Source of the DNA: a virus
IMG/VR virus record: IMGVR_UViG_3300047457_000500
Span: 59,488-123,487 of that record
DNA length: 64,000 nt
Reading direction: 5' to 3' (one strand)
In this document: piece after piece, positions 19,420 through 32,531 of the stretch
Position numbering within the stretch: the stretch's first letter is position 1
How the letters are laid out: each line of letters begins with the position of its first letter
Program-made: the position numbers and the translations under genes
Notes under the pieces: generated by a model
The model's database searches: none
Told to the model about the DNA's origin: nothing
The model's input: the letters and a program-made list of their open reading frames with translations, nothing else

Positions 19420-19587
19420 ATGACACTAGGCGGATACACTTATCAGGTAGGCGATTTATTCACCACCTCTAAGACAGGAGTTACAGGACGAATTGAAAAG
19501 TTTGTTCCTATCTCTCGTAATGTTACCAGAGTCATGCTACGCTTGGCAAATAACCAACAGCGTTTTGCTATGGTCAAAACACACTAA
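19420..19587 (+). CDS. Small SH3-like early protein
   Basis: YQVGDLFTTSKTGVTGRI; paralog of the next gene; manual translation. Confidence 0.65.
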   Translation: MTLGGYTYQVGDLFTTSKTGVTGRIEKFVPISRNVTRVMLRLANNQQRFAMVKTH

Positions 19588-19683
19588 TCTCAAAATATGA
19601 GAAATCTCAGAAATAACTTGACGAGAAATCTCAAAAATGCTAAAATTGAATATATCAACAACCAACTAACAAAGGAGAAAGAA

Positions 19684-19851
19684 ATGGCAGTAAATAACGC
19701 AACTTACAAGGTAGGCGACACCTACACCTCACAGAAGTCAAAGGTCACAGGTGTTATCACAGAAATCAAGCCAAACACAGACGGAACAAGCGTTCGTGTG
19801 AAACTTGATGTCAATGGCTCACCTCGCTGGACTACTTGGACAGCAAAGTAA
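19684..19851 (+). CDS. Small SH3-like early protein
   Basis: YKVGDTYTSQKSKVTGVI; AAGGAG RBS supports the 19684 start. Confidence 0.7.
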   Translation: MAVNNATYKVGDTYTSQKSKVTGVITEIKPNTDGTSVRVKLDVNGSPRWTTWTAK

Positions 19852-19866
19852 TTCCTAAACAGGAAA

Positions 19867-19896
19867 AGTCCTGAGCATGACTACTAAAACTGCTCA
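19867..19896 (+). ncRNA. Conserved 3' pseudoknot motif, copy 1
   Basis: AGTC-CTGAGCAT-GACT-ACTAAAAC-TGCTCA. Confidence 0.7.
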
Positions 19897-19931
19897 TAAC
19901 AACAAACAACGAAAGAAAAGGAAAATAACAA

Positions 19932-20354
19932 ATGGCACGACAAAAAGCAATTAGCGTGAAAATCGCTACAACCAAAGTTATCAAGGCTTTGGAAACTAAG
20001 TTAGCACAAATCAAGAAAGATAAGGCTAACCAAAAAACTAACGAGGAGAAGTATCAGAAGGCTCACGAAAAGTGGCTAAAAGATGTTGCTAAACTTTCTC
20101 TCGCTCAAATCTCAAAGGCAGAAAACCTACGAGCAAGCACACGCTACAATGGCATGGTAAATGTAGATTTTGATTTGCCTAAGTCTGTGGTAGCAGATTT
20201 CCCTGCTGAACCTGAAAAGGATTTTGAGACTTTTCATGAGTGGCAGTATAAGGAAATGGTTGAGGAAATTGAGAACGCAATTCGTATTCTCAAGATGACA
20301 GATGAGGAAGTAGTTTCTACTTCTACTTACAACGCTATCGCTAGATACTTGTAA
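19932..20354 (+). CDS. Hypothetical coiled-coil protein
   Basis: Strong RBS and biased codon usage. Confidence 0.7.
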   Translation: MARQKAISVKIATTKVIKALETKLAQIKKDKANQKTNEEKYQKAHEKWLKDVAKLSLAQISKAENLRASTRYNGMVNVDFDLPKSVVADFPAEPEKDFETFHEWQYKEMVEEIENAIRILKMTDEEVVSTSTYNAIARYL

Positions 20355-20425
20355 TTTGGTTGGGGGAGGGTATTTGACTCCCCCACTAATAAATGCTATG
20401 ATTAGATAATACGAAAGGATAAGCC

Positions 20426-20839
20426 ATGGAAACAACTAACATTCATAACGTCACTGAGGAATTTTTAAAAACTCAGATTACACAAAAAGATGAACGAATT
20501 CAGGTCCTGGAAGAGCATGTACAGCGTGTAACACAGCGTGACTACGCTACCGCTGGAAAACTGCAGGCAATGCGAGACGGTCTACACGAGTGGACTATGA
20601 CTGAATTAGAAAATAATGGAATCACAGAGGAGCAGGCTACTGAACTTTCTGAGATTGGTGGATTTGAACTTACAAAAGAAGTAGAGGCTGAAGTTACAGT
20701 CCGCTACTGGATTACTCTTCAGATTCCTGCAGGAGAAGACGCAGAGTCTGTAATCAATGATATTGATTTCGACGCAATTACATATGATACTGATGTGATA
20801 ACACATGTTAGTTCATCTGTAGACAGTATCGATATCTAA
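20426..20839 (+). CDS. Hypothetical acidic protein
   Basis: Own promoter (TTGACT...TATGAT) and GAAAGGA RBS. Confidence 0.7.
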   Translation: METTNIHNVTEEFLKTQITQKDERIQVLEEHVQRVTQRDYATAGKLQAMRDGLHEWTMTELENNGITEEQATELSEIGGFELTKEVEAEVTVRYWITLQIPAGEDAESVINDIDFDAITYDTDVITHVSSSVDSIDI

Positions 20840-20845
20840 CAATCT

Positions 20846-20918
20846 TCCTGGCCTTCATGAAAGGGGCCAGGATCTGCAAGCATCGCTCTTCTTTCATCCT
20901 TTCTTTCAAAGAGCATGC
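20846..20918 (+). ncRNA. Two hairpins, the second with an anti-SD loop (UCAUCCUUUCUUUC)
   Basis: tcctggcc/ggccagga stem, then a gcat-c-gctctt/aagagc-atgc stem around an 18-nt pyrimidine loop. Confidence 0.5.
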
Positions 20919-20921
20919 AAG

Positions 20922-20951
20922 GGACCTGAGCACGTCCACGTAAACTGCTCA
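20922..20951 (+). ncRNA. Conserved 3' pseudoknot motif, copy 2
   Basis: GGAC-CTGAGCAC-GTCC-ACGTAAAC-TGCTCA, followed by a T run. Confidence 0.7.
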
Positions 20952-21089
20952 TTTTTTATTGAAAAAGTGGTCGGGCGATTTGTCCTATATGTCCGATTTA
21001 CGAATTATGATCATATTCCCCAATCCTGGATTTGCTTTTGTCACCCCATTGTGCTAAACTTTAGATAACAAAACAGAAAGGAAATAAAA

Positions 21090-22097
21090 ATGGCTCATGA
21101 ATTAGAATCTGCTAATTCTTTCGCATCATTCCGTGAACCTGCTTGGCATGGTTTAGGAACTGTATTTCAGGAGGAAGTTACTACTGAAAAAATGTTGGAA
21201 CTCGCTAACCTTGATGGTTGGAATGTTCGTCTTGAAGATGTCGTAATCCCAGACACTCTTTCATCTGATAAATCTTATCAATATGTTGTGCGTGATAACC
21301 CATTCACCGCAAATCAAGTTGATGTTCTAGGCGTTGTTGGTGAACGCTATGTCCCATTGCAAAATGAAGACCTATTCACATTTGGTGATGCAATTCTTGA
21401 TGGCGGAGGTCGTTGGGAAACTGCTGGCTCATTGCGTGGTGGTCGTGTTGTATTTGGTTCTCTTGCTCTTGAGCGTGAGACTGTTCTAGACCCTAATGGC
21501 GTCGCTGATGTTGTCAAGACTTATCTTCTTGTCAACACATCACATGATGGTTCTGTTGCTATTCAAGCATCTGTAACACCTGTTCGTGTTGTATGCGCTA
21601 ACACTCTTGCTGTTGCACTAGGTCGCACTAGCAAAAAGGGTGGCGTAAAACAATCATTCAAGATTCGTCACACACAATCTGCTGAGGGTAAAGTTCAACA
21701 GGCTCGTGAGGCTCTTGCTGTTGCCAATGCTTATATGGATTCATTCTCTCTAATGGCTAAGGCTATGATTGAGAAAGAAATCACAGCGCAACAATTCAAT
21801 GATATTGTTCTCGCTGCGTATCCTAAGCCTGATGAAACCAAAAAGGGTGCATTGTCTAAGTGGACAACTAAGATTGACACTATCAATGACATCTATACAG
21901 GTGAATTCAATGGCATGATTGCTGGCACTGCATGGGGTGCATGGAATGCACTTACAGAAAGAATCGATTGGTATCGTGGAGGTAAGCGTGGTCTTACTGA
22001 ATCAATTCTAATGGGTTCAAGTGGATTTGACCCTGCTATCACAGCAGAAAAAAATCGTTTGCTAACTATTGTTCGCAACTCTCTAGAATTGGTGTAA
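21090..22097 (+). CDS. DUF932 family phage/plasmid protein
   Basis: MAHELE...PAWHGLG, ETAGSL.GGR, NTSHDGS and VRVVCANT motifs. Confidence 0.9.
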   Translation: MAHELESANSFASFREPAWHGLGTVFQEEVTTEKMLELANLDGWNVRLEDVVIPDTLSSDKSYQYVVRDNPFTANQVDVLGVVGERYVPLQNEDLFTFGDAILDGGGRWETAGSLRGGRVVFGSLALERETVLDPNGVADVVKTYLLVNTSHDGSVAIQASVTPVRVVCANTLAVALGRTSKKGGVKQSFKIRHTQSAEGKVQQAREALAVANAYMDSFSLMAKAMIEKEITAQQFNDIVLAAYPKPDETKKGALSKWTTKIDTINDIYTGEFNGMIAGTAWGAWNALTERIDWYRGGKRGLTESILMGSSGFDPAITAEKNRLLTIVRNSLELV

Positions 22098-22104
22098 CAA
22101 TTCA

Positions 22105-22131
22105 ACTCCTGAGCATGAGTAAAAACTGCTC
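22105..22131 (+). ncRNA. Conserved 3' pseudoknot motif, copy 3
   Basis: ACTC-CTGAGCAT-GAGT-AAAAAC-TGCTC. Confidence 0.7.
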
Positions 22132-22229
22132 TCTTGACAAAGATCAAAAAAGGTGCCGACCAAAAATATCATTTAGAAATTTAATTACGATACGTTGACA
22201 AAATCCCCAAATTTTGCTATTATTTATTC

Positions 22230-22424
22230 ATGGACCAAAAAGAACTAACGACATACATGACAAACCTGCGTAGTGGCCTGGATGAAGACCTACGTAATCT
22301 TGCTGCAGAAATGGACTCTATTGACCCTGCCTCTAAAGACTTTGCAGACCTAGACTTTGAGTTTAATTATATTACAGGACAAGTATCAATGTTAAGCCAT
22401 ATACTACAAAAGATAGGACAATAA
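22230..22424 (+). CDS. Hypothetical protein
   Basis: TTGACA-N17-TATTAT promoter, apparently leaderless. Confidence 0.6.
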   Translation: MDQKELTTYMTNLRSGLDEDLRNLAAEMDSIDPASKDFADLDFEFNYITGQVSMLSHILQKIGQ

Positions 22425-22582
22425 TGCTGGGGTATACAGAAGAACAAGTAGATAAGATGCTCACTACATTAAACTATACTATTCATCATCATATGACTGG
22501 TAAGTTTGCAGATGAGGATAGGTCAGTACTTAGAGATCTAGAGGACTTCTTACAGGGTTTGTTAGCAGAGGGACGTATTTGA
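22424..22582 (+). CDS. Small hypothetical protein (MLGYTEEQ...GLLAEGRI)
   Basis: TAATG coupling; manual translation. Confidence 0.55.
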   Translation: MLGYTEEQVDKMLTTLNYTIHHHMTGKFADEDRSVLRDLEDFLQGLLAEGRI

Positions 22583-22634
22583 CATCCCCCTGATATTTTG
22601 CTAGAATTGCATACAACGACTAGAAAGGAATAAT

Positions 22635-23330
22635 ATGCCAAATTGGGTATATAACTCTCTAACTATTGAGGGTAATGCAGAAGACATTTCTGCTATCAAA
22701 ACACAACTAAACCAACCATTCCAACGTCAACACGACCAATGGAATATGGAAACAAGACAAATGGAATTACAGGATGTTACTTATTCAAACCCTGTATTTG
22801 CATTCTGGAATATTATCAAGCCAACTAATCTAGAGGCATACAATAAGCAGTCTGACCATTCATTACCTATGGAAGAACAACTTATGTTCAAGGGTGATAA
22901 CTGGTATGACTGGAATGTAACTAACTGGGGAACCAAATGGGATGTTGCTGTATCAGATAATGAGCAGTATCCTGAGACTGAACTAATCAACGAAGAGGAT
23001 TGGTCAGATAGACTTACCTATAGTTTCAATACCGCTTGGTCTCCTCCTCTTCCTGCTATTGCTACATTGTCAGAACAATATCCTAATTTAGAATTTACCT
23101 TGTCATACGAGGAAGAAACAGGCTGGGGTGGCGAAATAGAGTTCCTCAATGGTCAAGATACTGTATTAGAAAACTATGAAAACAAATGTCGTGACTGTGA
23201 TTCAATCAACACACTAGAGTATTGCGAAAACGACTGTGGTGAGATATGCTCTGATTGCCATTACATGGGTGAGGCAGACTTAGAGTGTGTTGCAGAGTGT
23301 GACATACATAAAGAATACTTGGAGGCATAA
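22635..23330 (+). CDS. DUF1281/YubB-like ferredoxin-fold protein with a Cys-rich tail
   Basis: MPNWV.N.L.I.G, WYDWN..NWGTKW and F.TAWSPP motifs. Confidence 0.8.
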   Translation: MPNWVYNSLTIEGNAEDISAIKTQLNQPFQRQHDQWNMETRQMELQDVTYSNPVFAFWNIIKPTNLEAYNKQSDHSLPMEEQLMFKGDNWYDWNVTNWGTKWDVAVSDNEQYPETELINEEDWSDRLTYSFNTAWSPPLPAIATLSEQYPNLEFTLSYEEETGWGGEIEFLNGQDTVLENYENKCRDCDSINTLEYCENDCGEICSDCHYMGEADLECVAECDIHKEYLEA

Positions 23331-23581
23331 TGTTACCTGATTATCTAAAGAATGCAATCAATGCAGGTGCTACAGGACTAGATGTCATGCACGGGCACCT
23401 GAAGACGCTTATGCTTGACGCAGAACGGGAACTAGAAGAGGCGCAGCGGGTAGAAGACGAGACCGAAGAGGCCATTGATTCCATGGAGCGCAAGTACTGG
23501 GAGGGACAATTAGACGCCCTATCATATGTTTATAGCCTTACATATGAACTGTCATTTGCAGTAGCGGATAGGGAGGAATAG
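23330..23581 (+). CDS. Hypothetical protein
   Basis: TAATG coupling; DSMERKYWEGQLDAL. Confidence 0.6.
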   Translation: MLPDYLKNAINAGATGLDVMHGHLKTLMLDAERELEEAQRVEDETEEAIDSMERKYWEGQLDALSYVYSLTYELSFAVADREE

Positions 23582-23660
23582 ATCCACGTGTATGAGCAAT
23601 TGACATTAGACCTGGACCCTGATATCATTAATACAAACCCAACTACAGAAAGGACCCCCC

Positions 23661-24020
23661 ATGGGAGCACGTTGTAACTTTATCTTTAAACAATCAGAGG
23701 ACCAGGCCGTAGCGCTGTACAGCCACTGGGACGAAGACCATATGTATGAACTCCTGGCAGCAGCCCTGCAGCATGCAATGCCACGTATTCAAATGGGTGA
23801 TACCCCGTATGCGACTCGTATGGCTATCAGTTACATTATCAAGGATAGTATCTTAGATGAGACTGGATATGGAATTTATGCCTGTGACCCCTCAGACCAG
23901 GGATTCATGGACCATCCAATCACAATAGATTTCACAGACGGTACCGTGGGCAGCGGTGAAGACTGGCACTCAATTCCTGATTTTATTTCTTATCATTCTG
24001 CTCAGTTAATTACAAAATAA
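23661..24020 (+). CDS. Hypothetical phage protein (MGAR...LYSHW family)
   Basis: AGAAAGGA RBS; recurrent phage motif. Confidence 0.7.
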   Translation: MGARCNFIFKQSEDQAVALYSHWDEDHMYELLAAALQHAMPRIQMGDTPYATRMAISYIIKDSILDETGYGIYACDPSDQGFMDHPITIDFTDGTVGSGEDWHSIPDFISYHSAQLITK

Positions 24021-24027
24021 TAACTTT

Positions 24028-24087
24028 GGGGCGTAAGGTTTGGTTTATTCCTTTCGTCGTTGTGCCTTGCGCCCCTCCCACTTTTTT
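24028..24087 (+). ncRNA. Hairpin with an anti-leader/anti-SD loop and a T tract
   Basis: 12-bp stem ggggcgtaaggt/gccttgcgcccc; the loop is complementary to 22613-22633. Confidence 0.55.
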
Positions 24088-24105
24088 GATAGAATAGGAG
24101 TAACT

Positions 24106-24324
24106 ATGACTACACGCAGACACAGACTAACTGACGAGGAACGAGTTGCCATGCGCCTTGCCACTTTAGTATCTGACTTGCGACTTGACATCGAGCAGGT
24201 TGGGCAGTATTTAGCGCAGGTAGCACCAACAGTATCGTATAATAGACTTATCACAATCGCAGAAAGCGCACAACATCACAAAGAGGAGAAATACAATGAG
24301 CAATACCAATACAGACTTTTCTAG
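24106..24324 (+). CDS. Hypothetical protein
   Basis: AGGAG RBS before MTTRRHR. Confidence 0.6.
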   Translation: MTTRRHRLTDEERVAMRLATLVSDLRLDIEQVGQYLAQVAPTVSYNRLITIAESAQHHKEEKYNEQYQYRLF

Positions 24325-24568
24325 TCGTTGTAATATTCTGGCAGACCTGTGGTTGAACTATAAAGATGATGCTGAGTTTTCTGACTTCATACAATATAAT
24401 GACATGGGTTTGCCCCTAGCATTTTTTGTTAGTCAAGAAGTTGTTCCTAGTAATGATATGGTAATGAACTATGTCAATGAAACTTGGGAGTTATTCTTAG
24501 AGGCTCTAAAGATAGAAGACACAGGGTTTGACACACTTGACGAATTGCTAATGGGATTTGACAAGTAG
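24296..24568 (+). CDS. Hypothetical acidic protein
   Basis: GAGGAG RBS. Confidence 0.65.
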   Translation: MSNTNTDFSSRCNILADLWLNYKDDAEFSDFIQYNDMGLPLAFFVSQEVVPSNDMVMNYVNETWELFLEALKIEDTGFDTLDELLMGFDK

Positions 24569-24600
24569 CCACGAAAGTGGTCGGCATATTATTTTAGTTA

Positions 24601-25220
24601 TACAAACCATTACGATACCAAACCATTTTTCCCCAAAATAGGATTACGATCCAAACCATATTTTTCCCAAACCATGATAAATGGTGTTATGATTATATGT
24701 ATGCCAAGACATTTTTATAGAGTTAATTATCCAAACCAAGCAAATGATGATGATAGAGGTTTGCATAATGCCTTTGTAGCCTTTACTCATCTTATAGGTC
24801 TTAGTAAGTACTTCTCTTTTATCCCGCCCGTTTTTGACAGGGACGAGTGGCGGGCCGAACACGGGGCGGGATCTAAAAAAGATTACGATCATACCATATA
24901 TCCCCCTAATAAGCAATAACAAACCATATTTCCTGGTTTTAAAACATTTTCAAACATAATAAAAAGTATTACGAACTTATTGGAATTTTCCCAGACTTTT
25001 GGCAATTTTTCTGCATAAATCTATTACGAAGATACTTGACAAACCATGGTTTTGCAGATATAATGCCCAAACCTTGATATATGGTTTGACAGATATGGGG
25101 CATATATGGTATAAGGGTTTGATGGATATAGGGTTTGATGGTTTGGCATTACGATCCCCGCATTAAAAAGCGCTTCATTACCCATATCTCTCCACTATCC
25201 TCCACTTTACTCCACATATA
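24601..25220. repeat. Iteron-like tract of CAAACC(AT) and ATTACGA repeats
   Basis: About 12 CAAACC/GGTTTG copies and 6 ATTACGA copies; orientation switches near 25045. Confidence 0.65.
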
Positions 25221-25274
25221 AAATAACAGTAAGATTTATTTTTCAAAATAAGCGATGCTATAATTAAGTTTGCC

Positions 25275-25766
25275 ATGATAAAAGACGTATTTACGCAGCC
25301 ACAAATAGATTTTATAAACCAACTCGTGTTGGATAACTATGACAAATTGGATAGCAGGTATTCAGAACGAGGTAGGGAAGATATCGTTTTAACTCCCAAT
25401 GGGACAGCAGCATTTGAGAACCTAAACCCTATTGCCAAAGAAATATGTGACCGTGTGCTTTCATATTTTGATGAGGGTAAATACATCAATGCCATAACCT
25501 ATGGTGAATACACAAACAAACACACCAACCCTAATCTTCCACCACACAAGGATCCTATCCATACCAAGAATGGCCTAACCTTTGACTACCTATTGGATTC
25601 AAATGTTGATTGGCCAATATGTCTGGAAGGTGACTGTGTGAGCCTAGAAAAGAATGATGCTATCATTTTTAGTCCATGTGAGCAGTATCACCACAGACCA
25701 GAAATGATATTTAATGATGGCGATTATGTTAAAGTTTTATTTTTTATGATTAGGACAAACCAATGA
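25275..25766 (+). CDS. 2OG-Fe(II) oxygenase-like protein (HxRP subfamily)
   Basis: PNLPPHKD, TFDYLLD and QYHHRP motifs. Confidence 0.7.
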   Translation: MIKDVFTQPQIDFINQLVLDNYDKLDSRYSERGREDIVLTPNGTAAFENLNPIAKEICDRVLSYFDEGKYINAITYGEYTNKHTNPNLPPHKDPIHTKNGLTFDYLLDSNVDWPICLEGDCVSLEKNDAIIFSPCEQYHHRPEMIFNDGDYVKVLFFMIRTNQ

Positions 25767-25918
25767 TATCTCACGACTCAAAAGTTGATATTATTGTAGA
25801 AATAATACACGAACATCTAAAGGGTAAGCATAAGGACTCTCTATCTAAAAGATTGGCGGTAGAGATAATTGAAGCCCTAGATGACGAACCTACACCATCA
25901 TGGTATGAACACGGTTAA
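25763..25918 (+). CDS. Small hypothetical protein (51 aa)
   Basis: ATGA coupling; manual translation. Confidence 0.5.
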   Translation: MISHDSKVDIIVEIIHEHLKGKHKDSLSKRLAVEIIEALDDEPTPSWYEHG

Positions 25919-26149
25919 TGCTATAATGGAAAGATGTCTGATACATTGAAATGTTATTATTGTGATAACAAACCAGAATATACTCAACCAGATAAGACTA
26001 CTGGTGTTATCGTCGATGTTTGTAAAAGACATTTTATCTACATGTATATGGGGTGATTATGGACAAAGATAAGGCAGATGCCAACTTCAAGGCTTTTTGG
26101 ATTCTATTGGGATCTATCATTGTTATTCTTACTATAGTAGGGATTGCTA

Positions 26150-26326
26150 TTGGGTAATAGGGCTAATAGGGATTACGAAGAACTTACAGATCCCGTCGAA
26201 CTTTTGGTAAAAACCAAAGCACCTACTAAATGGTTATTGATAGATAGGGAAACAGGACAAGTCTATCAAGGCAGTCCATATGGTCATTGGGATAGGTTAG
26301 ATCCTGTTATAAAGGATAAAATATGA
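26150..26326 (+). CDS. Hypothetical protein
   Basis: KTKAPTKWLLIDRETGQVY motif; TTG start. Confidence 0.55.
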   Translation: MGNRANRDYEELTDPVELLVKTKAPTKWLLIDRETGQVYQGSPYGHWDRLDPVIKDKI

Positions 26327-26859
26327 GAGTTCATTTACTTACCCTGCCTGGAATGAAAGAAACTGTTGGAGAATATATCCAGATTAAGTTTGAAATCCCT
26401 CACGTTTCATTTAAGTATTCATTTGGACCAGATATGCCAGAAGATGATGTAGATCACATTATTGGCCTGTGCAGAAAACCACAAGAGGCCATTGCTGATC
26501 TTATTCATCAAGGATATGAAACACCTGCAGCATTAGAAAAATATAGAAGATATTCGGATTATATATGTGACAATGCTAAAACCATAATAAACTATGAATC
26601 TCTTAAAGATATAGATGGTTTGACTAAGGCATTGTTTAATCATTTTGCCCTTGAGGATGATAACTGGAAAACCAAAACTGGCAAAGAGTCTTTGTTTGAT
26701 GAGATAATGTCTAGGCAAATTCCATTTAATGTATGGGTTGAGCCATATCAGGATGCATTCAAGGGATTAATGTATCCAGAGATAGTCTTAAAGGGCATGA
26801 TAGATGAAAGACTATTAGAGCATTATGATAAGGTGGATACTAGAACTATTAAACCCTAG
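26323..26859 (+). CDS. Hypothetical protein, possibly a degenerate sulfotransferase fold
   Basis: R.P..AI.. and I.YE.L segments; weak similarity. Confidence 0.45.
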   Translation: MRVHLLTLPGMKETVGEYIQIKFEIPHVSFKYSFGPDMPEDDVDHIIGLCRKPQEAIADLIHQGYETPAALEKYRRYSDYICDNAKTIINYESLKDIDGLTKALFNHFALEDDNWKTKTGKESLFDEIMSRQIPFNVWVEPYQDAFKGLMYPEIVLKGMIDERLLEHYDKVDTRTIKP

Positions 26860-26892
26860 TGCTAGTGTCTAGCATAAAATGGTTTGATATTT

Positions 26893-27780
26893 CTATTTAC
26901 CGCCGAACTTTAAGCGCTTGTTTATTAGGTCTATAACTGTTTCAGAAACTTCTTTATTCCACCCACCGCCAGGGTGTTGATTATCGCCAGCCAAAAACCA
27001 ATACTTTACATCGCTGTTACCGTAATCCTTTTTTGTGTAATCTGGATAAGATGTGGGTATTTTAAAATAAGAACTATATTGTTCAGCAAAGTTATCAAAT
27101 ACAGACTCTGAGTCAATATGCCAAGTACTCCACAAAAATATAGAGCCATTTGCCTTGAATATATTTTCTAATAAATCTATCATTGTCAAATAAACTATTG
27201 CATTTTCTTGCGGTATATAGTTTTCTTTATACTTTGATAACTCCTCATACATCCAGTCAACCGTATTGTCTTTATAGAAGTTTAATTGGGCTGGTATAAA
27301 CTGATCTATGTATGTGCTGTAAATCATCTTTCGATGGATGTCTGGCAATATCATTACTAGCACATCTGGTATTCCGTATTTATTAATAAAGGCGCATATA
27401 TTTTTTATTATTAAATGAATTGATGCACCCATCATAGAAAGATTATAGCCTTTAGTGTCTTTTATATTTTTAAAGTATTCTGTTGTAAAATCAGACCATC
27501 TAAATTCTTGTGGGATATCCTGTCCAAAACTAAAAGAGCATCCACTGTACAATATGTTTAAATTGTCTTTATTTAAAGGCTCAAAGTTGTCTGTTCTAAA
27601 TCCGTCTTTATTTATCTTATATGTTATATCATCAGCATTTGTGCTCTTAGTATAAAAATAATCATTATCCCAGTACCCTTCTCTGGTTAGCATAGATCCA
27701 TTAACACCTTTGATATGAAATTGTGAATGATCAAAAACAGTTATGTTTTTATATATACTTTCATTAATGTTTAACGTCAT
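26893..27780 (-). CDS. SGNH/GDSL-like protein
   Basis: GCSFSFG and GDNQHPG motifs; tandem paralog of the next gene. Confidence 0.7.
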   Translation of the reverse strand: MTLNINESIYKNITVFDHSQFHIKGVNGSMLTREGYWDNDYFYTKSTNADDITYKINKDGFRTDNFEPLNKDNLNILYSGCSFSFGQDIPQEFRWSDFTTEYFKNIKDTKGYNLSMMGASIHLIIKNICAFINKYGIPDVLVMILPDIHRKMIYSTYIDQFIPAQLNFYKDNTVDWMYEELSKYKENYIPQENAIVYLTMIDLLENIFKANGSIFLWSTWHIDSESVFDNFAEQYSSYFKIPTSYPDYTKKDYGNSDVKYWFLAGDNQHPGGGWNKEVSETVIDLINKRLKFGGK

Positions 27781-28649
27781 AAAACCTCAAGCACTCGTTT
27801 TGCAAATCTTTCATGCCACCCACCACCTGGATGTCTACCATCCCCTGCTATTTTCCAATACGGAGATTCGTGCTCCTCATAGTCTTGCTTAACAGACCTT
27901 GGACCACTTATTAAGTTTTTAGAATCAAACCAGCAATCTAAATCGTTGGCAAACATAGAAAAACAATCCTCAGTTAAACCATCATATGTAGAAACTAAAA
28001 ACTTAGAGCCAGCATTTTTGCATAATAACTCTAATAATTTAAGCATTAATAAATTATTTAATAATAAATTTTCTGGCATCAGTTGATCAACAAAATTTTT
28101 AGCATCGGGCTTTTGTGTTCTAGGAGTTAAATCAAAAAATTCTGATGTCACTGGATCAAAAGTAACTGTTCTAGTTATATCTGGCATTAATGCAATTATT
28201 AAATCTGGCATTCCGTAAGTATTAATAAAAGCACATATGTTGCTAAGTGTTAAAAATATAGATCCACCCATAATAGACAAATTATATTCTTCAACATCTT
28301 TATTTTTAGATAATTCTTTTGTTATTAGTTTTGTCCATAACATCTCTTCTGGTAGATCTTGTCCAAATGTTACTGAGCATCCGCTATACAAAACCGTAAA
28401 CTTTTTCTTATCCACTGGCTTAAAATTATTGCATCTAAAACCCTGTTTGTTTAACTTATATAATAAGTCTATACTAAGTTTCATTGTATGCACATTATGC
28501 GTATAATAATAATCATCTTCCCAATATCCAGAATCCATTTTATTATTACTTTTATTAGAGTTAAAAACCATCTGCATTCTGGTATTTACTATAGTATTAG
28601 GGCTAAGAATATCCCTATTATTATTTAAAATATCAGTTTTATATGCCAT
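27777..28649 (-). CDS. SGNH/GDSL-like protein
   Basis: GCSVTFG and GDGRHPG motifs. Confidence 0.7.
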   Translation of the reverse strand: MAYKTDILNNNRDILSPNTIVNTRMQMVFNSNKSNNKMDSGYWEDDYYYTHNVHTMKLSIDLLYKLNKQGFRCNNFKPVDKKKFTVLYSGCSVTFGQDLPEEMLWTKLITKELSKNKDVEEYNLSIMGGSIFLTLSNICAFINTYGMPDLIIALMPDITRTVTFDPVTSEFFDLTPRTQKPDAKNFVDQLMPENLLLNNLLMLKLLELLCKNAGSKFLVSTYDGLTEDCFSMFANDLDCWFDSKNLISGPRSVKQDYEEHESPYWKIAGDGRHPGGGWHERFAKRVLEVL

Positions 28650-28960
28650 ATAATATATTGTACTTGACTTTTATTCCTATAGAGAATATAATGGTTATAT
28701 GAATAGGTTTATTATATGCCCAGCCTGCAAAAAAGAGATAGAGGTTAGGTGGGGTATTTTTGCCCATGATACACTTAATAGACACATAAAGGAGCATAGA
28801 TGAAACAGCATACATTTCCAGACCCAGACAAAGAGGGATATGAAATTGTTATACCTAATGAAGTTAAAAAAGATATCATCATTGAATATTTAAGAACAAC
28901 CTATTATTGGTCTATTGCATTGGCATGTTTCATTATTGGATTTTTAGTTAGGTCCGTATT

Positions 28961-29218
28961 ATGATTAATTGGATTGTAGATAATTTATTTAAATGGGATA
29001 GCCTTCGCATTGCACTTTTTTCAGAAGTCGATTGGTATAACTCTATTTCTCGTACCTTGGAAGATCCAGATTCTATGAAAACTGTTTCTACAATTTGGTG
29101 TGAGCCTGATGGTTGGCGTGGATGGAACTTAAAAGATGAAGGTACATATTATTTTCATGATTTGCCAGAAAAAGGTATTGCAGACATTATGGACATAATT
29201 TATGGGAGTGATGAATGA
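28961..29218 (+). CDS. Hypothetical protein
   Basis: Operon-coupled ORF. Confidence 0.55.
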   Translation: MINWIVDNLFKWDSLRIALFSEVDWYNSISRTLEDPDSMKTVSTIWCEPDGWRGWNLKDEGTYYFHDLPEKGIADIMDIIYGSDE

Positions 29219-29514
29219 CCTGGGCTTGCCCTTGTAATGGCTGTAAAAAGGCACAGAAGGTCATTATAGACCAGATCATTGAAGACTATAAGTCTTGTCC
29301 GAATATTGTTGAGTATGATGAAAAACTATACTGTTCTACATGGTATAGACATGATGATTGTGTAAGGCTAATGGAACTATTAAATAAGATTACGAATAAA
29401 GATTTATATTCCCTGCCAGAAACAAGGCCAGTAGTTAGAGATGCAATAGAGAAAATGATTAATGATCCAGATACCGCAGAAATATTACGAAGACTTGAAG
29501 ACAACGGTATTTGA
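29215..29514 (+). CDS. Cys-rich hypothetical protein
   Basis: CPCNGC...C...HDDC. Confidence 0.55.
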   Translation: MTWACPCNGCKKAQKVIIDQIIEDYKSCPNIVEYDEKLYCSTWYRHDDCVRLMELLNKITNKDLYSLPETRPVVRDAIEKMINDPDTAEILRRLEDNGI

Positions 29515-29547
29515 CAAACAACATAGCACAAACTATAATTAAATAAT

Positions 29548-29621
29548 GGAGCAGTAGCCAAGTTGGTCAAGGCCCCGAACTCATAATTCGGCTATCGTAG
29601 GTTCGAGTCCTACCTGCTCTA
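29548..29621 (+). tRNA. tRNA with CAT anticodon (Met or Ile2)
   Basis: GGAGCAG/CTGCTCT acceptor, CCGAA-CTCATAA-TTCGG anticodon arm, GTTCGAG T loop. Confidence 0.9.
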
Positions 29622-29623
29622 CA

Positions 29624-29787
29624 AGGCTCATCAGGAATTCGACCTCTCGATGAGTACAACTGCCCTGAAACCAGCCTGGTGGTAGTCGTTGGATAACCTG
29701 TGTCGAACAGGCCCAAGCAGACAGCATCTAAGGAGCAGAGCCAGTAGTTATATTCGCCGTAAAAACGGGTAGCGTGACTGGCACCCA
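29624..29787 (+). ncRNA. Unassigned structured RNA between tRNAs
   Basis: GC-richer 165-nt spacer with several stems (ctcatc/gatgag, cctgt/acagg, gccagt/actggc). Confidence 0.4.
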
Positions 29788-29788
29788 A

Positions 29789-29861
29789 GCCCTTGTAGCC
29801 CAGTGGTAGAGGCACACGACTTAAAATCGTGCAAGCGTTGGTTCGAATCCAACCAGGGGTA
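29789..29861 (+). tRNA. tRNA-Leu(TAA), short variable arm
   Basis: CACGA-CTTAAAA-TCGTG anticodon arm. Confidence 0.9.
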
Positions 29862-29862
29862 C

Positions 29863-29939
29863 GCATCTGTAACTCAGTTGGTTAGAGTACCCGCCTTATA
29901 TGCGGAGAGCCGAAGGTTCAAGTCCTTCCAGATGTACCA
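29863..29939 (+). tRNA. tRNA-Ile(TAT)
   Basis: CCGC-CTTATAT-GCGG anticodon arm; encoded CCA. Confidence 0.85.
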
Positions 29940-29940
29940 G

Positions 29941-30012
29941 ACCTCTGTAACTCAGCGGAAGAGTAGCGGACTTCTAATCCGTTTGTCGCAGGTTCGATTC
30001 CTGCCAGGGGTG
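29941..30012 (+). tRNA. tRNA-Arg(TCT)
   Basis: GCGGA-CTTCTAA-TCCGT anticodon arm. Confidence 0.9.
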
Positions 30013-30028
30013 CTACAATTAAGTACTT

Positions 30029-30104
30029 TGGTCTGTAGTTCAGTTGGTAGAACACTCGACTGTTAATCGAGATGTCGCAGGATCGAGACCTGCCAGACCA
30101 GCCA
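30029..30104 (+). tRNA. tRNA-Asn(GTT)
   Basis: CTCGA-CTGTTAA-TCGAG anticodon arm; variant T loop ATCGAGA; encoded CCA. Confidence 0.9.
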
Positions 30105-30105
30105 A

Positions 30106-30179
30106 GGTCCGTTAGTTCAGTTGGTTAGAACGCTACCCTGTCACGGTAGAGGTCGTCGGTTCAAGTCCGATACGGATCG
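30106..30179 (+). tRNA. tRNA-Asp(GTC)
   Basis: CTACC-CTGTCAC-GGTAG anticodon arm. Confidence 0.9.
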
Positions 30180-30180
30180 C

Positions 30181-30251
30181 TGGAACATAGTGTAGTGGTA
30201 GCACAACGGATTCCAAACCCGTTAGTGTGGGTTCGATTCCTACTGTTCCTG
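30181..30251 (+). tRNA. tRNA-Trp(CCA)
   Basis: ACGGA-TTCCAAA-CCCGT anticodon arm; T:T mismatch at 1:72. Confidence 0.8.
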
Positions 30252-30255
30252 CAAT

Positions 30256-30327
30256 GGCACTATCGTCTATCGGTTAGGACATCGCCCTTTCACGGCGGAA
30301 AGACGGGTTCGATTCCCGTTAGTGCTG
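30256..30327 (+). tRNA. tRNA-Glu(TTC)
   Basis: TCGCC-CTTTCAC-GGCGG anticodon arm. Confidence 0.9.
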
Positions 30328-30362
30328 CGGGTTGTCGTAGGTTCAAATCCTACAGGAGGCTC
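30328..30362 (+). pseudogene. 3' half of a tRNA
   Basis: Variable loop, GTAGG-TTCAAAT-CCTAC T arm and acceptor 3' strand AGGAGGC; no 5' half. Confidence 0.7.
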
Positions 30363-30387
30363 TGGTATAATTTTAAAAAGGAGAATT

Positions 30388-30609
30388 ATGAGACCAGGAA
30401 TGATAGTCATGATAACTGACGAAGGACAGTATAATAAAAAGGCTGCAGAAATTATATCTTCTGTAGATGATGATTTTACTGTGAAGGTTTGTGACACTAG
30501 CGAAACAATAGTTTTAAAATCTAGTAGTTTAAAAAGAAGAAAACTATGTGTTTGTAATACATCAAAGAGCAAGCCATTTTGTGATGGCTCGCACTCTGGT
30601 TTATTTTAA
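30388..30609 (+). CDS. KOW/SH3-like domain fused to a CDGSH iron-sulfur motif
   Basis: LCVCNTSKSKPFCDGSH; AAGGAG RBS. Confidence 0.8.
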   Translation: MRPGMIVMITDEGQYNKKAAEIISSVDDDFTVKVCDTSETIVLKSSSLKRRKLCVCNTSKSKPFCDGSHSGLF

Positions 30610-31361
30610 TTCATAGTGTTATACTTTCCATCTATTACGATGCAGACTTGATCTAATATGTTTCTTGGCTCATTGTTAAAGTATAATCTTAGTCCATCTA
30701 ATGTATCATGTATAACTTTTTCGTTATTCATTGTTAGATTATAACAAAGAGCAGCCCTTCTTGTTTTTCCCAATATAGAAATTGCTTCTTCCAAAAAGTT
30801 TGGTATCTCATCATGAAATTCTTGACCACGTTTTGCATTTCTTAGCATCAAAACCATTGGGTATCTATAATCTTTTCTTTCTTCTAAAAACAATAACCTT
30901 TCATCTTTAACAAAAGGCAAAAATGATTCAAATATAAAGTTATGCATGGTACCTGTAACTGCAACTGCTGCCATTACAACAGATGGTCCTGGAGTAGATG
31001 TAATATGTATTCCTTCTGATATGCATCTCTTTACAATTCTAGCGCCTGGATCAGCAACGCCTGGCATTCCCTCATCTGATATTAAATATACATCTTCTCC
31101 ACTTTTTAATATAGACAAAACCTTTTCCATATTGTGTAATTCATATGCTTCTCCTGGCTCACCACCATCTGAATCATATTCTATTGATATTGTGTTTACG
31201 TTAGGCTTTTGCATCCCTAGTGCTGGCCAAATTCTTTCAAATGCTTCTTCTCTTTCAATTACTATATTTTTTGCATCTTTAATATATTGATATGCTCTAT
31301 TAGACATATCATCCCAGTTGCCTACGGGTAATCCAACTAAAAAAAGTTTTCCATATTTCAT
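30606..31361 (-). CDS. rsmI: RsmI-like SAM-dependent methyltransferase (tetrapyrrole methylase fold), copy 1
   Basis: GKLFLVGLPVGN, ISDEGMPGVADPG, PGPS and FIFESFLP motifs. Confidence 0.75.
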   Translation of the reverse strand: MKYGKLFLVGLPVGNWDDMSNRAYQYIKDAKNIVIEREEAFERIWPALGMQKPNVNTISIEYDSDGGEPGEAYELHNMEKVLSILKSGEDVYLISDEGMPGVADPGARIVKRCISEGIHITSTPGPSVVMAAVAVTGTMHNFIFESFLPFVKDERLLFLEERKDYRYPMVLMLRNAKRGQEFHDEIPNFLEEAISILGKTRRAALCYNLTMNNEKVIHDTLDGLRLYFNNEPRNILDQVCIVIDGKYNTMN

Positions 31362-31395
31362 ATATCAAGTATACACCATGTGATACAATGATTTA

Positions 31396-31977
31396 ATGAT
31401 AGTAGATAAAGAGTTTTTATCTTTAGAAGAGGTAACGCATTTAAAAAATGTTATGTGCGAAGATCCAAAATGGAATTTTCCATGGATATTTCATAAATCT
31501 ACAAATATAAAAACAGATAATTATGCAATCTTAGATGGCGACAATATAGTTGATAGTCCACAGTTTGTCCATATGGCTATGTTTAATAAACAAAAACAAT
31601 CTCCTTTTGCAGATAACTGTATATCCATATTAAATCAATTTGCTAAAAAAAATAATATAAGAGTTGATGATATTATTAGAATTAAAGCAAATATGATATT
31701 AAAAAATTGTGATGCTGGAATACATTATCCACATGTAGATGCAGATAAAGATCATCTAGTATTCTTGTACTATGTAAATGATTCAGATGGAGATACAATA
31801 TTTTTTAATGAAAAATATGACGGTTCTAAAATAGATAATTTAACTGTTATGTCTAGAGTATCTCCAGAATCTGGAAAGGCTGTAGTATTTGACGGAAGAA
31901 CATACCATGCATCTTCAAGCCCCTCAATAGGTGATTATAGGTGTGTTATTAATATAGACTTTATAGGAAGTTTGTGA
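31396..31977 (+). CDS. 2OG-Fe(II) oxygenase
   Basis: HYPHVD, YYVNDSDGDT and HAS...R motifs. Confidence 0.85.
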   Translation: MIVDKEFLSLEEVTHLKNVMCEDPKWNFPWIFHKSTNIKTDNYAILDGDNIVDSPQFVHMAMFNKQKQSPFADNCISILNQFAKKNNIRVDDIIRIKANMILKNCDAGIHYPHVDADKDHLVFLYYVNDSDGDTIFFNEKYDGSKIDNLTVMSRVSPESGKAVVFDGRTYHASSSPSIGDYRCVINIDFIGSL

Positions 31978-32040
31978 TATAATATTAATGTACCTGCCCA
32001 AAGGGGGGTATAAAATGACTCGCTTAACAAGGAGAAAATA

Positions 32041-32460
32041 ATGGTAAGTTCATTTGCATTGGATCTATTTAAGGATCCATTTTTTATTGGTTTCAACAGA
32101 GAGTTGGACCGTCTTTCAAATATCCATCGTGAGGCAACTCGTCAATCTTATCCACCATACGATGTGGTAAAACTTGATGAGGACACTTACAAACTATCTT
32201 TGGCACTTGCTGGCTTTAGCAAGTATGAGGTAGAGGTTTCTGTGGATAATGGAAGTTTAATTATCAAGGGTGAGAAAGCCGAAGAGGACTCAACTAACGT
32301 CCTACATAAGGGTATCGCAACTCGTAAGTTCACACGCACCTTTGCTCTTGGAGAGTATATGGAGGTTGATCGTGCTGAAATGGCAGACGGTATTCTTAGC
32401 GTCTTTGTGGAAAGAAACATCCCCGAAGAAAAGAAACCAAAAACTATCAAAATCAAGTAA
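32041..32460 (+). CDS. hsp20: Small heat shock protein (Hsp20/IbpA-like)
   Basis: YPPYDV, ALAGF, LHKGIATRKF and IPEEKKPKTIKI motifs. Confidence 0.95.
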   Translation: MVSSFALDLFKDPFFIGFNRELDRLSNIHREATRQSYPPYDVVKLDEDTYKLSLALAGFSKYEVEVSVDNGSLIIKGEKAEEDSTNVLHKGIATRKFTRTFALGEYMEVDRAEMADGILSVFVERNIPEEKKPKTIKIK

Positions 32461-32481
32461 GTAACAGTATTGTCATACTGA

Positions 32482-32509
32482 CCACCTGAGCATGTGGATA
32501 AACTGCTCA
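32482..32509 (+). ncRNA. Conserved 3' pseudoknot motif, copy 4
   Basis: CCAC-CTGAGCAT-GTGG-ATAAAC-TGCTCA. Confidence 0.7.
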
Positions 32510-32531
32510 TTTGCCATGCTATAATATTCTT

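What the first reader, a model, noticed from the sequence alone, without database searches (positions are those of the whole stretch)
19867..32509. Four-copy compact RNA pseudoknot with complete stem-1 covariation, always just 3' of a gene
Seen: the motif NNNC-CTGAGCAY-GNNN-(A-rich 6-8 nt ending AAAC)-TGCTC occurs at 19867, 20922, 22105 and 32482. The 4-bp stem 1 differs in each copy but is always perfectly complementary (AGTC/GACT, GGAC/GTCC, ACTC/GAGT, CCAC/GTGG). The loop GAGCA pairs with the downstream TGCTC, forming an H-type pseudoknot. All copies are on the sense strand within about 85 nt of a stop codon (an SH3-like gene, 20426..20839, DUF932, hsp20). Established: H-type pseudoknots with an A-rich loop 3 form ligand or protein-binding folds (class I preQ1 riboswitch, ToxI antitoxins) and nuclease blocks. 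Inference: this is a selected RNA element rather than a terminator, possibly an exonuclease barrier stabilising abundant mRNAs, a protein-binding tag or an antitoxin decoy. I do not recognise it as a named family.
Basis: partly seen in the sequence, partly recalled or inferred. Interest (0 to 1): 0.85.

Follow-up and report, generated by a model that had tools for sequence, protein, structure and literature searches.

The report
Widespread phage gene-end RNA pseudoknot
Four copies of a 28-30-base knotted RNA fold sit just after genes in this lake phage; the same fold, in no RNA catalogue searched, recurs in well over a hundred unrelated phages and probably caps message ends, though its job is untested.

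Summary
There are exactly four copies in the window and in the whole 123,487-bp virus record, all on the sense strand. The next-best covariance-model hit scores 10.8 bits against 37.8-44.5.

The pseudoknot is real. Stem 1 paired fully in 112 of 136 instances. All 25 clear variants of stem 2 kept pairing through G-U or compensatory changes.

The element follows ORFs, with a sharp 5-nt floor after the stop codon. It lies before 17 of 55 tRNA arrays but after only 1 of 56. A U-rich tract follows it in 31 of 177 cases. Neighbouring genes show no common function, and no neighbouring protein family is shared.

Rfam has no match and my literature searches found no description. The core closely parallels the plant-virus 'coremin' Xrn1-resistant element, but the second hairpin that coremin needs is missing.

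My best reading (about 0.4) is a protein-independent cap or roadblock that defines and protects the 3' end of the upstream cistron, and sometimes serves as a terminator hairpin. Function is untested.

This scan had already met the same motif on two other genomes.

The parts
19867..19896 (+). Pseudoknot copy 1. P1 is 19867-19870 with 19879-19882. P2 is 19872-19877 with 19891-19896. The A-rich L3 is 19883-19890. It lies 15 nt after the stop of ORF 19597-19851 and 36 nt before the ATG of ORF 19932-20354.
   Evidence: Sequence. CM R1 scores 44.0 bits. Related contigs L024, L035 and L039 carry the same P1 and L3 after the same gene end.
20922..20951 (+). Pseudoknot copy 2. P1 is 20922-20925 with 20934-20937. 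P2 is 20927-20932 with 20946-20951. It lies 82 nt after the stop of ORF 20426-20839 and is followed directly by TTTTTT (20952-20957).
   Evidence: Sequence. CM R1 scores 37.8 bits.
22105..22131 (+). Pseudoknot copy 3. P1 is 22105-22108 with 22117-22120. P2 has 5 bp, 22111-22115 with 22127-22131. It lies 7 nt after the stop of the DUF932 gene 21090-22097. A sigma-70-like promoter (22195-22223) lies downstream of it.
   Evidence: Sequence. CM R1 scores 43.2 bits. DUF932 is shown. The promoter scan is.
32482..32509 (+). Pseudoknot copy 4. P1 is 32482-32485 with 32494-32497. P2 is 32487-32492 with 32504-32509. It lies 21 nt after the stop of the hsp20 gene 32041-32460 and is followed by TGcTATAAT (32517-32525).
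   Evidence: Sequence. CM R1 scores 44.5 bits. Hsp20 is shown. Locus L089 has a homologous arrangement.

Best explanation
The element is a compact, self-contained H-type RNA pseudoknot. Its parts are a 4-bp P1 closed by C-G, a 1-nt L1 (C), a 5-6-bp P2, a 1-nt L2, and an A-rich L3 ending in AAAC.

It is transcribed as the tail of the upstream cistron. There it acts, without a dedicated partner protein, as a mechanically robust cap. The cap marks and protects that cistron's 3' end against 3'-to-5' exonucleases.

The 3' end itself is made in one of three ways: by RNase P when a tRNA follows, by another endonuclease in the G-poor linker, or by termination where a U-tract follows. In that last case P2 doubles as the terminator hairpin.

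What is shown: the fold, its sense-strand orientation, its link to ORF ends, and the spacing rules. What is inferred: the barrier function and its direction.
For: Fold.
- P1 pairs 4 of 4 in 112 of 136 instances found by a pattern that did not ask for pairing. Chance is about 5%.
- With no P2 requirement, 162 of 174 candidates pair 4 of 4. All 25 homologous-looking P2 variants keep every pair.
- 96.1% of cells are paired, against 79.2% in shuffles and 23-41% when the partners are slid.

Gene-end link.
- The upstream gene is on the same strand in 114 of 119 intergenic cases.
- The distance from stop codon to P1 has a floor at 5 nt. 21 of 130 instances are at exactly 5, 2 are below 5, and 48 are at 9 or less. 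At that spacing the knot sits just outside a terminating ribosome; this reading is inference from recalled ribosome-footprint data.
- The motif lies within 60 nt upstream of 17 of 55 tRNA arrays. It lies within 150 nt downstream of 1 of 56 arrays and inside 1 of 26 internal gaps. 18 instances lie 3-14 nt before a tRNA.
- Six or more T in the next 10 nt occur in 31 of 177 instances, against 1 and 2 of 177 in control windows.
- Upstream genes include many abundant proteins: Hsp20 in 18, DUF932 in 12, RNR in 5 and SSB in 3 of 124.
- The motif stays with the upstream flank more often than with the downstream one: 61 against 19 pairs.
- In Streptomyces phage Navo the orthologous DUF932 gene end carries an ordinary terminator-like hairpin instead.

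No partner.
- No protein family occurs in more than 21 of 120 loci.
- The motif occurs in phages of many host groups.
Against: - No transcript ends could be mapped. The RNA runs are held as contigs only, and some RNA contigs run through the knot into the next gene.
- The stems are short and AT-rich. Nested folding gives only -5 to -9 kcal/mol, with z-scores from -0.9 to -2.9. A plain GC hairpin would serve as a 3' barrier, so the strong sequence conservation across phyla is not explained by this model alone.
- The closest known fold, coremin, blocks enzymes moving 5' to 3', which is the opposite direction.
- The flank co-inheritance count is biased, because upstream flanks are coding sequence.
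- The Navo comparison is a single case.
Confidence: 0.4

Rival explanations
1. It is a 5'-to-3' roadblock, like coremin and other xrRNAs. The knot stops RNase J, RNase E scanning from the 5' end, Rho or stray ribosomes coming from the upstream ORF. It thereby protects or insulates whatever lies downstream.
For: - The core matches coremin position for position: a 4-bp hp1 with a C-G closing pair, L1 = C, and then UUAAAC-U directly after the 3' strand of hp1.
- Coremin and its Watson-Crick variant stall Xrn1 and ribosomes.
- The knot abuts downstream units. tRNAs lie at 3-14 nt, and start codons lie from about 15-20 nt.
- Three copies stand in tandem in L062.
Against: - A 5' protector should be most useful at tRNA-to-ORF junctions, where processing leaves a 5'-monophosphate end. 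Yet only 1 of 56 such sides has the motif, against 17 of 55 ORF-to-tRNA sides.
- The hp2 hairpin that both coremin types need for Xrn1 resistance is absent, and hairpins are even depleted there: 10 of 172 against 49 of 344 control windows.
- Some hosts, such as Vibrio, lack RNase J. That point is recalled knowledge.
- The U-tract enrichment is not explained.
Confidence: 0.25
2. It is a recognition site for a conserved host factor or RNase. For example, it could be a tRNA-like punctuation signal cut by RNase P, Z or E, or a tag for a ribosome- or RNAP-binding factor.
For: - Sequence conservation across phages of many host phyla is stronger than a mere barrier needs.
- The element sits at cistron boundaries and next to tRNAs.
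- The 10 nt downstream are G-poor, with 2-9% G.
Against: - No common phage-encoded partner was found.
- Nothing in the data points to a particular enzyme.
- The conserved bases match those that coremin needs for its own tertiary fold, which explains the conservation without a partner.
Confidence: 0.13
3. It is a dedicated transcription terminator or pause element in which the pseudoknot replaces the usual GC hairpin.
For: - A U-rich tract follows 31 of 177 instances, against 1-2 of 177 in controls. Window copy 2 is one of them.
- The Navo orthologue has a classical terminator at the same place.
- No classical terminators are enriched in this early region: 9 found against 8.6 expected.
Against: - 146 of 177 instances lack a clear U-tract.
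- 18 instances lie 3-14 nt before a tRNA, which must be co-transcribed because there is no room for a promoter.
- There is one copy in a T7-like phage, ParMal1. Its middle genes are read by a phage RNA polymerase; that point is recalled knowledge.
Confidence: 0.1
4. It is a riboswitch aptamer or a small self-cleaving ribozyme.
For: - It has a pseudoknot and several near-invariant bases, and it occurs in many phyla. These are the criteria that Weinberg et al. 2017 give for biochemically sophisticated RNAs (passage seen).
- Its topology resembles preQ1-I and the first half of pistol. This comparison is recalled.
Against: - There is no coherent regulon among 124 upstream or 119 downstream genes.
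- There is no expression platform and no conserved flank.
- There is no Rfam match.
- At 28 nt with only two 1-nt junction loops, there is little room for a pocket or an active site. This is inference.
Confidence: 0.07
5. It is a DNA-level element: a recombination linker that shuffles gene cassettes, or a single-stranded-DNA signal.
For: - Metatranscriptome contigs of relatives join 20356 to 22106 and 22131 to 19418, exactly at the motif borders.
- Loose ends start right after 19896 and 20951.
- Both flanks are mosaic.
Against: - G-U wobble pairs appear on the sense strand only. The pair GAGT/GCTC occurs 13 times, and 15 U-G cells are counted.
- Strict covariation points to a folded single strand that reads as the mRNA.
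- Mosaic joints are the expected by-product of any conserved intergenic repeat.
Confidence: 0.05

Closest known systems
Coremin motif (xrRNA-C) of beny-, cucumo- and other eukaryotic RNA viruses. Source: Dilweg et al. 2019, PMC6546385 (abstract and Results part 1 read). Source: Dilweg et al. 2023, PMC10520033 (abstract read).
   Same: - Both have a 3-4-bp first hairpin whose loop-closing C-G pair is sequence-specific.
- In both, the first loop base is a pyrimidine (C) acting as L1, and the loop ends in A-D.
- In both, the 3' strand of the hairpin is followed at once by U-U-A-A-A-C-U.
- In coremin A16 to A20 are essential. In the phage motif AAAC-U is near-invariant.
- Both are small H-type pseudoknots with an A-rich loop over the minor groove of stem 1.
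   Different: - The coremin loop has 4 or 6 nt (YGAD or YGNNAD) and its stem 2 is non-canonical. The phage loop has 8 nt and forms 5-6 Watson-Crick pairs.
- Coremin needs a second hairpin directly downstream. In the phage motif that hairpin is absent or depleted.
- The hosts of the phage motif are dsDNA phages, not RNA viruses.
- Context statistics point to a 3'-end role, not a 5'-to-3' block.
Watson-Crick coremin variant xrRNA-WCC. Source: Dilweg et al. 2023, PMC10321173 (abstract, introduction and passages read).
   Same: - It has a canonical antiparallel stem 2 between the hp1 loop and the spacer.
- It has the same stem 1 and A-rich loop.
- It acts on ribosomes without hp2.
   Different: - Its stem 2 has only 3 bp.
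- It still needs hp2 for Xrn1 resistance.
- It is known from a laboratory screen and two RNA viruses. That paper does not contain the words 'phage' or 'bacteri'.
Luteoviral frameshifting pseudoknots such as BWYV, as discussed in PMC10321173.
   Same: They have about the same size (about 28 nt), an L1 base in the groove of stem 2, and an A-rich loop forming a minor-groove triplex.
   Different: Those lie inside coding sequence, 5-9 nt after a slippery site. The phage motif lies after stop codons, and no slippery site was looked for or seen.
preQ1-I riboswitch
   Same: It is an H-type pseudoknot of about 34 nt with an A-rich 3' tail. This description is recalled.
   Different: There is no Rfam match even at E up to 10. 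The element is not upstream of queuosine genes. It has no expression platform.
PeSL cassettes of T4-type phages (Arbiol et al. 2010; recalled, not read).
   Same: They are repeated intergenic motifs in early-gene regions that mark the borders of shuffled gene cassettes. Compare the joints.
   Different: PeSLs are a promoter plus a simple stem-loop. They have no pseudoknot and are not shared across phage groups.

Membership tests
Coremin / xrRNA-C | A first hairpin of 3-4 bp with a sequence-specific C-G loop-closing pair. | tested here: met
   P1 has 4 bp. The C-G pair was fixed by my search patterns, so its 150 of 150 count in A2 is not independent. The CM search found a few G-C flips (L057). 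The coremin requirement was read.
Coremin / xrRNA-C | Loop 1 follows the consensus YGAD (4 nt) or YGNNAD (6 nt). | tested here: not met
   The loop has 8 nt, C-U-N4-A-Y. It shares the leading pyrimidine and the A before the last base, but neither the size nor the G at position 2.
Coremin / xrRNA-C | A conserved spacer, U13 U14 A15 A16 A17 C18 U19 A20 C21, directly after hp1. | tested here: met
   L3 plus the first P2 base reads (U/A)(U/A)AAAC-U. The A before AAC is at least 90% conserved and was not fixed by the scan pattern. The A20 C21 part is replaced by Watson-Crick partners.
Coremin / xrRNA-C | A second hairpin (hp2, at least 4 bp) directly downstream, needed for Xrn1 resistance. | tested here: not met
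   A hairpin starts within 4 nt in 10 of 172 instances, against 49 of 344 control windows. The next 10 nt are G-poor.
Coremin / xrRNA-C | It stalls a 5'-to-3' exoribonuclease. | not testable with these tools
   This needs an in vitro Xrn1 or RNase J assay.
preQ1-I riboswitch (Rfam) | A match to the family model, and a position in the 5' UTR of queuosine or transport genes. | tested here: not met
   No Rfam hit lies on the motif at gathering score or at E up to 10. Downstream genes are diverse: SNase in 8, DUF932 in 6 and Zn_ribbon_8 in 6 of 119.
Intrinsic terminator | A stable hairpin followed at once by a U-tract. | tested here: inconclusive
   Six or more T in 10 nt occur in 31 of 177 instances, which is strongly enriched over controls (1 and 2 of 177) but still a minority. 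Of the four window copies only copy 2 has it.
Type III antitoxin RNA (ToxI-like) | Tandem repeats next to a toxin endoribonuclease gene. | tested here: not met
   The copies are dispersed over 12.6 kb. No neighbouring protein family is shared by more than 21 of 120 loci. No tandem-repeat finder was run.

The most novel reading that the evidence does not exclude
This is the first nuclease- and ribosome-resistant 'roadblock' RNA class of bacteriophages. It is a portable 28-nt module with the same tertiary core as the coremin xrRNA of eukaryotic RNA viruses. The shared core would be either an ancient common design or a striking convergence. dsDNA phages of many phyla would use it to set message ends without a protein or a classical terminator.
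Probability: 0.3. Interest if true: 0.85.

Novelty: new variant of a known kind. Interest (0 to 1): 0.8.

Why it matters
If the reading holds, phages carry a universal, protein-free RNA part of under 30 nt that fixes where a message ends or how long it lives. That would be useful as a tiny stabiliser or insulator in synthetic operons.

It would also fill a gap in how densely packed early phage transcripts are punctuated.

The near-identity of its core with the plant-virus coremin element would link RNA-decay evasion in eukaryotic RNA viruses with that in bacterial DNA viruses. It would also supply hundreds of natural covarying sequences for solving the still unknown coremin fold.

Tried and rejected
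**Known RNA families.** Rfam at gathering score and at E up to 10 gave only tRNAs and irrelevant weak hits.

**Riboswitch.** I rejected this because the flanking genes have no common function.

**Phage-encoded partner protein.** All-against-all clustering of 2,438 ORFs from 120 loci gave no family in more than 21 loci. The loci cover only up to about 7 kb on each side, so a distant partner is not excluded.

**Sigma-70 promoter linked to the motif.** Promoter-like sites occurred within 150 nt downstream in 12 of 172 instances and upstream in 10 of 172. I rejected this as a general feature.

**Close DNA relatives.** Megablast of 19500-23500 against the phage collection found no match.

**RNA runs.** Metatranscriptome contigs (X15-X18) cover the region and the knot. 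Because they are contigs, they give no transcript ends, strand or expression level. The steep fall in depth after 20362 cannot be interpreted.

**'Convergent gene' cases.** These looked like proof of a 3' role. On re-inspection several are artefacts of my crude ORF calling, because a tRNA or a short ORF follows.

**Literature.**
- Searches for the motif strings, for phage pseudoknot motifs and for exoribonuclease-resistant RNA with RNase J and phage found no description of this element.
- A search on mycobacteriophage Patience RNA-seq gave nothing useful.
- The 2026 bioRxiv preprint on coevolutionary mining of prokaryotic non-coding elements was seen only as a listing and could not be opened.
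- The catalogue of more than 10,000 candidate structured RNAs in viruses and phages (PMC10690425) was seen only as two passages. Either source might already list this motif.

**Not run.** I did not run complex prediction, protein folding or the large protein searches, because no question here needed them.

Full report
**What is in the window.**

The four sites read exactly as reported. Their common layout is NNNC-C-U-GAGC-A-Y-GNNN-(A-rich, ending AAAC)-U-GCUC-(A).
- The combined pattern occurs 4 times on the + strand. Shuffles give 0.32.
- The whole 123,487-bp virus record, of which the window is bases 59488-123487, has these four copies and no others. All are forward.
- A covariance model built later scores them at 37.8-44.5 bits. 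The next hit in the genome scores 10.8.
- Each copy lies in an intergenic gap after a + strand ORF. The ORFs are an 84-aa ORF, a 137-aa ORF, DUF932 and Hsp20. The distances from the stop codon are 15, 82, 7 and 21 nt.
- The record is a lake phage. Its DUF932 protein is closest to those of Streptomyces, Mycobacterium and other actinobacterial phages, at up to 54.6% identity. Its DNA recurs in many lake metagenomes.

**Is the pseudoknot real?**

I scanned IMG/VR with a pattern that fixes the conserved letters but leaves stem 1 free.
- In the 136 instances found, the three free pairs of stem 1 all paired in 112 and two paired in 22. The other two instances scored 1 and 0 pairs, and the zero was cut by a locus end. 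Chance for full pairing is about 5%.
- For stem 2, I asked only for a perfect stem 1 and the flanking fixed letters. 162 of 174 candidates had all four inner pairs.
- Of 41 candidates with a non-standard letter on either side, 29 paired fully. All 25 that were clearly homologous kept every pair. They did so by G-U (GAGU/GCUC) or by double changes (AAGC/GCUU, GGAC/GUCC, GAAC/GUUC, GAGU/ACUC, GGGU/GCCC).
- On a 150-sequence alignment 96.1% of cells pair, against 79.2% in shuffles (0 of 500 shuffles reach that) and 23-41% with slid partners. 7 of 10 pairs show changes on both sides. That alignment was selected for pairing, so the unbiased counts above carry the argument.
- G-U pairs lie on the sense strand, so the folded strand reads as the mRNA.
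- Nested folding sees only the P2 hairpin, at -5 to -9 kcal/mol.
- The model search also turned up natural variants. One is a second 3'-strand type, AAAAGGCUC, with 9 instances. Others are flips of the closing pair and hairpins inserted at L2.

**Where it occurs.**
- The flanks carry no further conserved sequence. The base after UGCUC is A in 76% of instances, which adds a sixth P2 pair. The next 8-9 bases are G-poor, at 2-9% G.
- The motif is also in cultured phages. Mycobacterium phage Labelle, Lentibacter phage ICBM1, Vibrio phage D456 and the T7-like Paracoccus phage ParMal1 have one copy each. Synechococcus phage S-EIVl has seven matches, one of them partial.
- In 596 Gb of bacterial and archaeal genomes the pattern is mostly noise. 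Even so, 37 of 122 matches have a perfect stem 1 against about 5% expected. They come from MAGs and isolates of many phyla.
- Of ten ORFs flanking such matches that I scanned, five matched PHROG families at E up to 0.001. One is a head scaffolding protein in Lacticaseibacillus. Another is a metallo-protease / anti-restriction-like protein in a Methanobrevibacter MAG.

**What the context says.**
- Upstream genes are on the motif's strand in 114 of 119 intergenic cases, and downstream genes in 98 of 112. Several apparent convergent cases turned out to be followed by a tRNA or a short ORF.
- The distance from the stop codon has a sharp floor at 5 nt. 21 of 130 instances are at exactly 5, only 2 are below, and 48 are at 9 or less. 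With the stop codon in the A site, 5 nt is about the closest a structure can sit without entering the ribosome's mRNA channel. That point is recalled knowledge and the reading is inference. I take it to mean that the knot must stay folded while the upstream ORF is translated.
- Upstream genes include Hsp20 (18), DUF932 (12), ribonucleotide reductase (5) and SSB (3) of 124. Downstream genes are unrelated to one another. That argues against a riboswitch.
- No protein family is shared by more than 21 of 120 loci. That argues against a nearby dedicated partner.

**Which side does it serve?**

Three counts favour the upstream ORF.
1. The motif lies within 60 nt before 17 of 55 tRNA arrays. It lies within 150 nt after only 1 of 56 and inside 1 of 26 internal gaps. 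18 instances lie 3-14 nt before a tRNA of nine different isotypes. RNase P cutting at such a tRNA would leave the upstream message ending just after the knot. A protector of downstream RNA should instead be found at tRNA-to-ORF junctions.
2. Six or more T in the next 10 nt occur in 31 of 177 instances, against 1 and 2 of 177 in control windows. Window copy 2 is one of these. So a subset looks like a terminator whose hairpin is the knot.
3. Related contigs keep the upstream flank and swap the downstream one more often than the reverse, 61 against 19 pairs. This count is biased, because upstream flanks are coding sequence.

In Streptomyces phage Navo the orthologous DUF932 gene is followed by an ordinary terminator-like hairpin and no knot. 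This is one case only.

In the window, sigma-70-like promoters lie after copies 3 and 4. That fits a gene-plus-knot cassette, but it is not general.

**RNA evidence.**

Four metatranscriptome runs hold contigs over the region, including the knot. They show relatives in which cassettes are rejoined exactly at motif borders: 20356 to 22106, and 22131 to 19418. They also show sequences that diverge right after 19896 and 20951. Because these are contigs, they give no transcript ends.

**Comparison with known elements.**

Notes from earlier agents of this scan pointed to the coremin motif. I checked this in the papers.
- Coremin has a 3-4-bp hairpin with a sequence-specific C-G closing pair, a first loop base that cannot be freely changed, the spacer U13 U14 A15 A16 A17 C18 U19 A20 C21 with A16-A20 essential, and a required second hairpin (PMC6546385; PMC10321173).
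- The phage motif has the same stem size, closing pair and L1 base. It also has the same UUAAAC-U directly after the stem.
- It differs in having an 8-nt loop that forms 5-6 Watson-Crick pairs. It also lacks the second hairpin: 10 of 172 instances against 49 of 344 control windows.
- It therefore works like, and may fold like, a Watson-Crick coremin. It fails two defining tests for membership.
- Coremin blocks enzymes moving 5' to 3'. My context counts point the other way, so the direction remains the main open question.

**Novelty.**
- There is no Rfam family for it.
- Four literature searches found no description.
- PMC10321173 does not contain the words 'phage' or 'bacteri'.
- I could not see the supplementary catalogues of PMC10690425, nor the 2026 preprint listed. 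Either might include the motif.
- This scan had already reported the motif on two other genomes. My counts are independent of those reports, except for the coremin lead.

**Verdict.**

The element is a real, strongly selected and very widespread phage RNA pseudoknot at gene ends. The most likely role is a protein-free cap for the upstream message that sometimes doubles as a terminator hairpin (0.4). A coremin-like 5'-to-3' roadblock comes second (0.25). Function is untested.

Noticed in passing
window 29548-30327: A cluster of 8 tRNA genes (Rfam, 57.7-68.5 bits) is preceded by a perfect TTGACA-17-TATAAT promoter at 29511-29539. No pseudoknot copy lies next to this cluster, unlike in many relatives.
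   Followed up: partly
window 19932-20354, with the drop at 20363: The 140-aa ORF of unknown family has very high depth in RNA contigs, up to 4,834 in run X15. Depth falls to 17.7 in the next bin. The high-depth contigs carry other letters and joints, so they come from relatives in which the knot follows this ORF directly.
   Followed up: partly
window 20356/22106 and 22131/19418 (joints in RNA contigs): Relatives have gene cassettes rejoined exactly at motif borders. The knot therefore marks mosaic junctions, which recalls the PeSL cassettes of T4-type phages.
   Followed up: partly
L062:7400-7578: Three pseudoknot copies stand in tandem within 180 nt after one ORF. A hairpin-like stretch lies between the first two.
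   Followed up: no
L007, L023, L032, L036, L039, L078, L091: A second subtype replaces AAAC-UGCUC with AAAA-GGCUC, so an A-G apposition closes P2. There are nine instances, one of them with a compensated AAGC/GCUU pair.
   Followed up: partly
L035:6624-6674 and L037:3080-3145: These copies carry a hairpin inserted between the 5' strand of P2 and the 3' strand of P1. The 1-nt L2 is therefore a tolerated insertion point.
   Followed up: no
window 20848-20871: An inverted repeat, CTGGCC...GGCCAG, lies 8 nt after the stop of ORF 20426-20839 and about 50 nt before copy 2. Its role is unknown.
   Followed up: no
window 25036-25064, 22195-22223, 20374-20402, 31955-31983: Many near-consensus sigma-70 promoters stand before single small genes. 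This suggests an early region built of self-contained cassettes. However, the overall count of promoter-like sites does not exceed shuffles (63 against 66.9).
   Followed up: no
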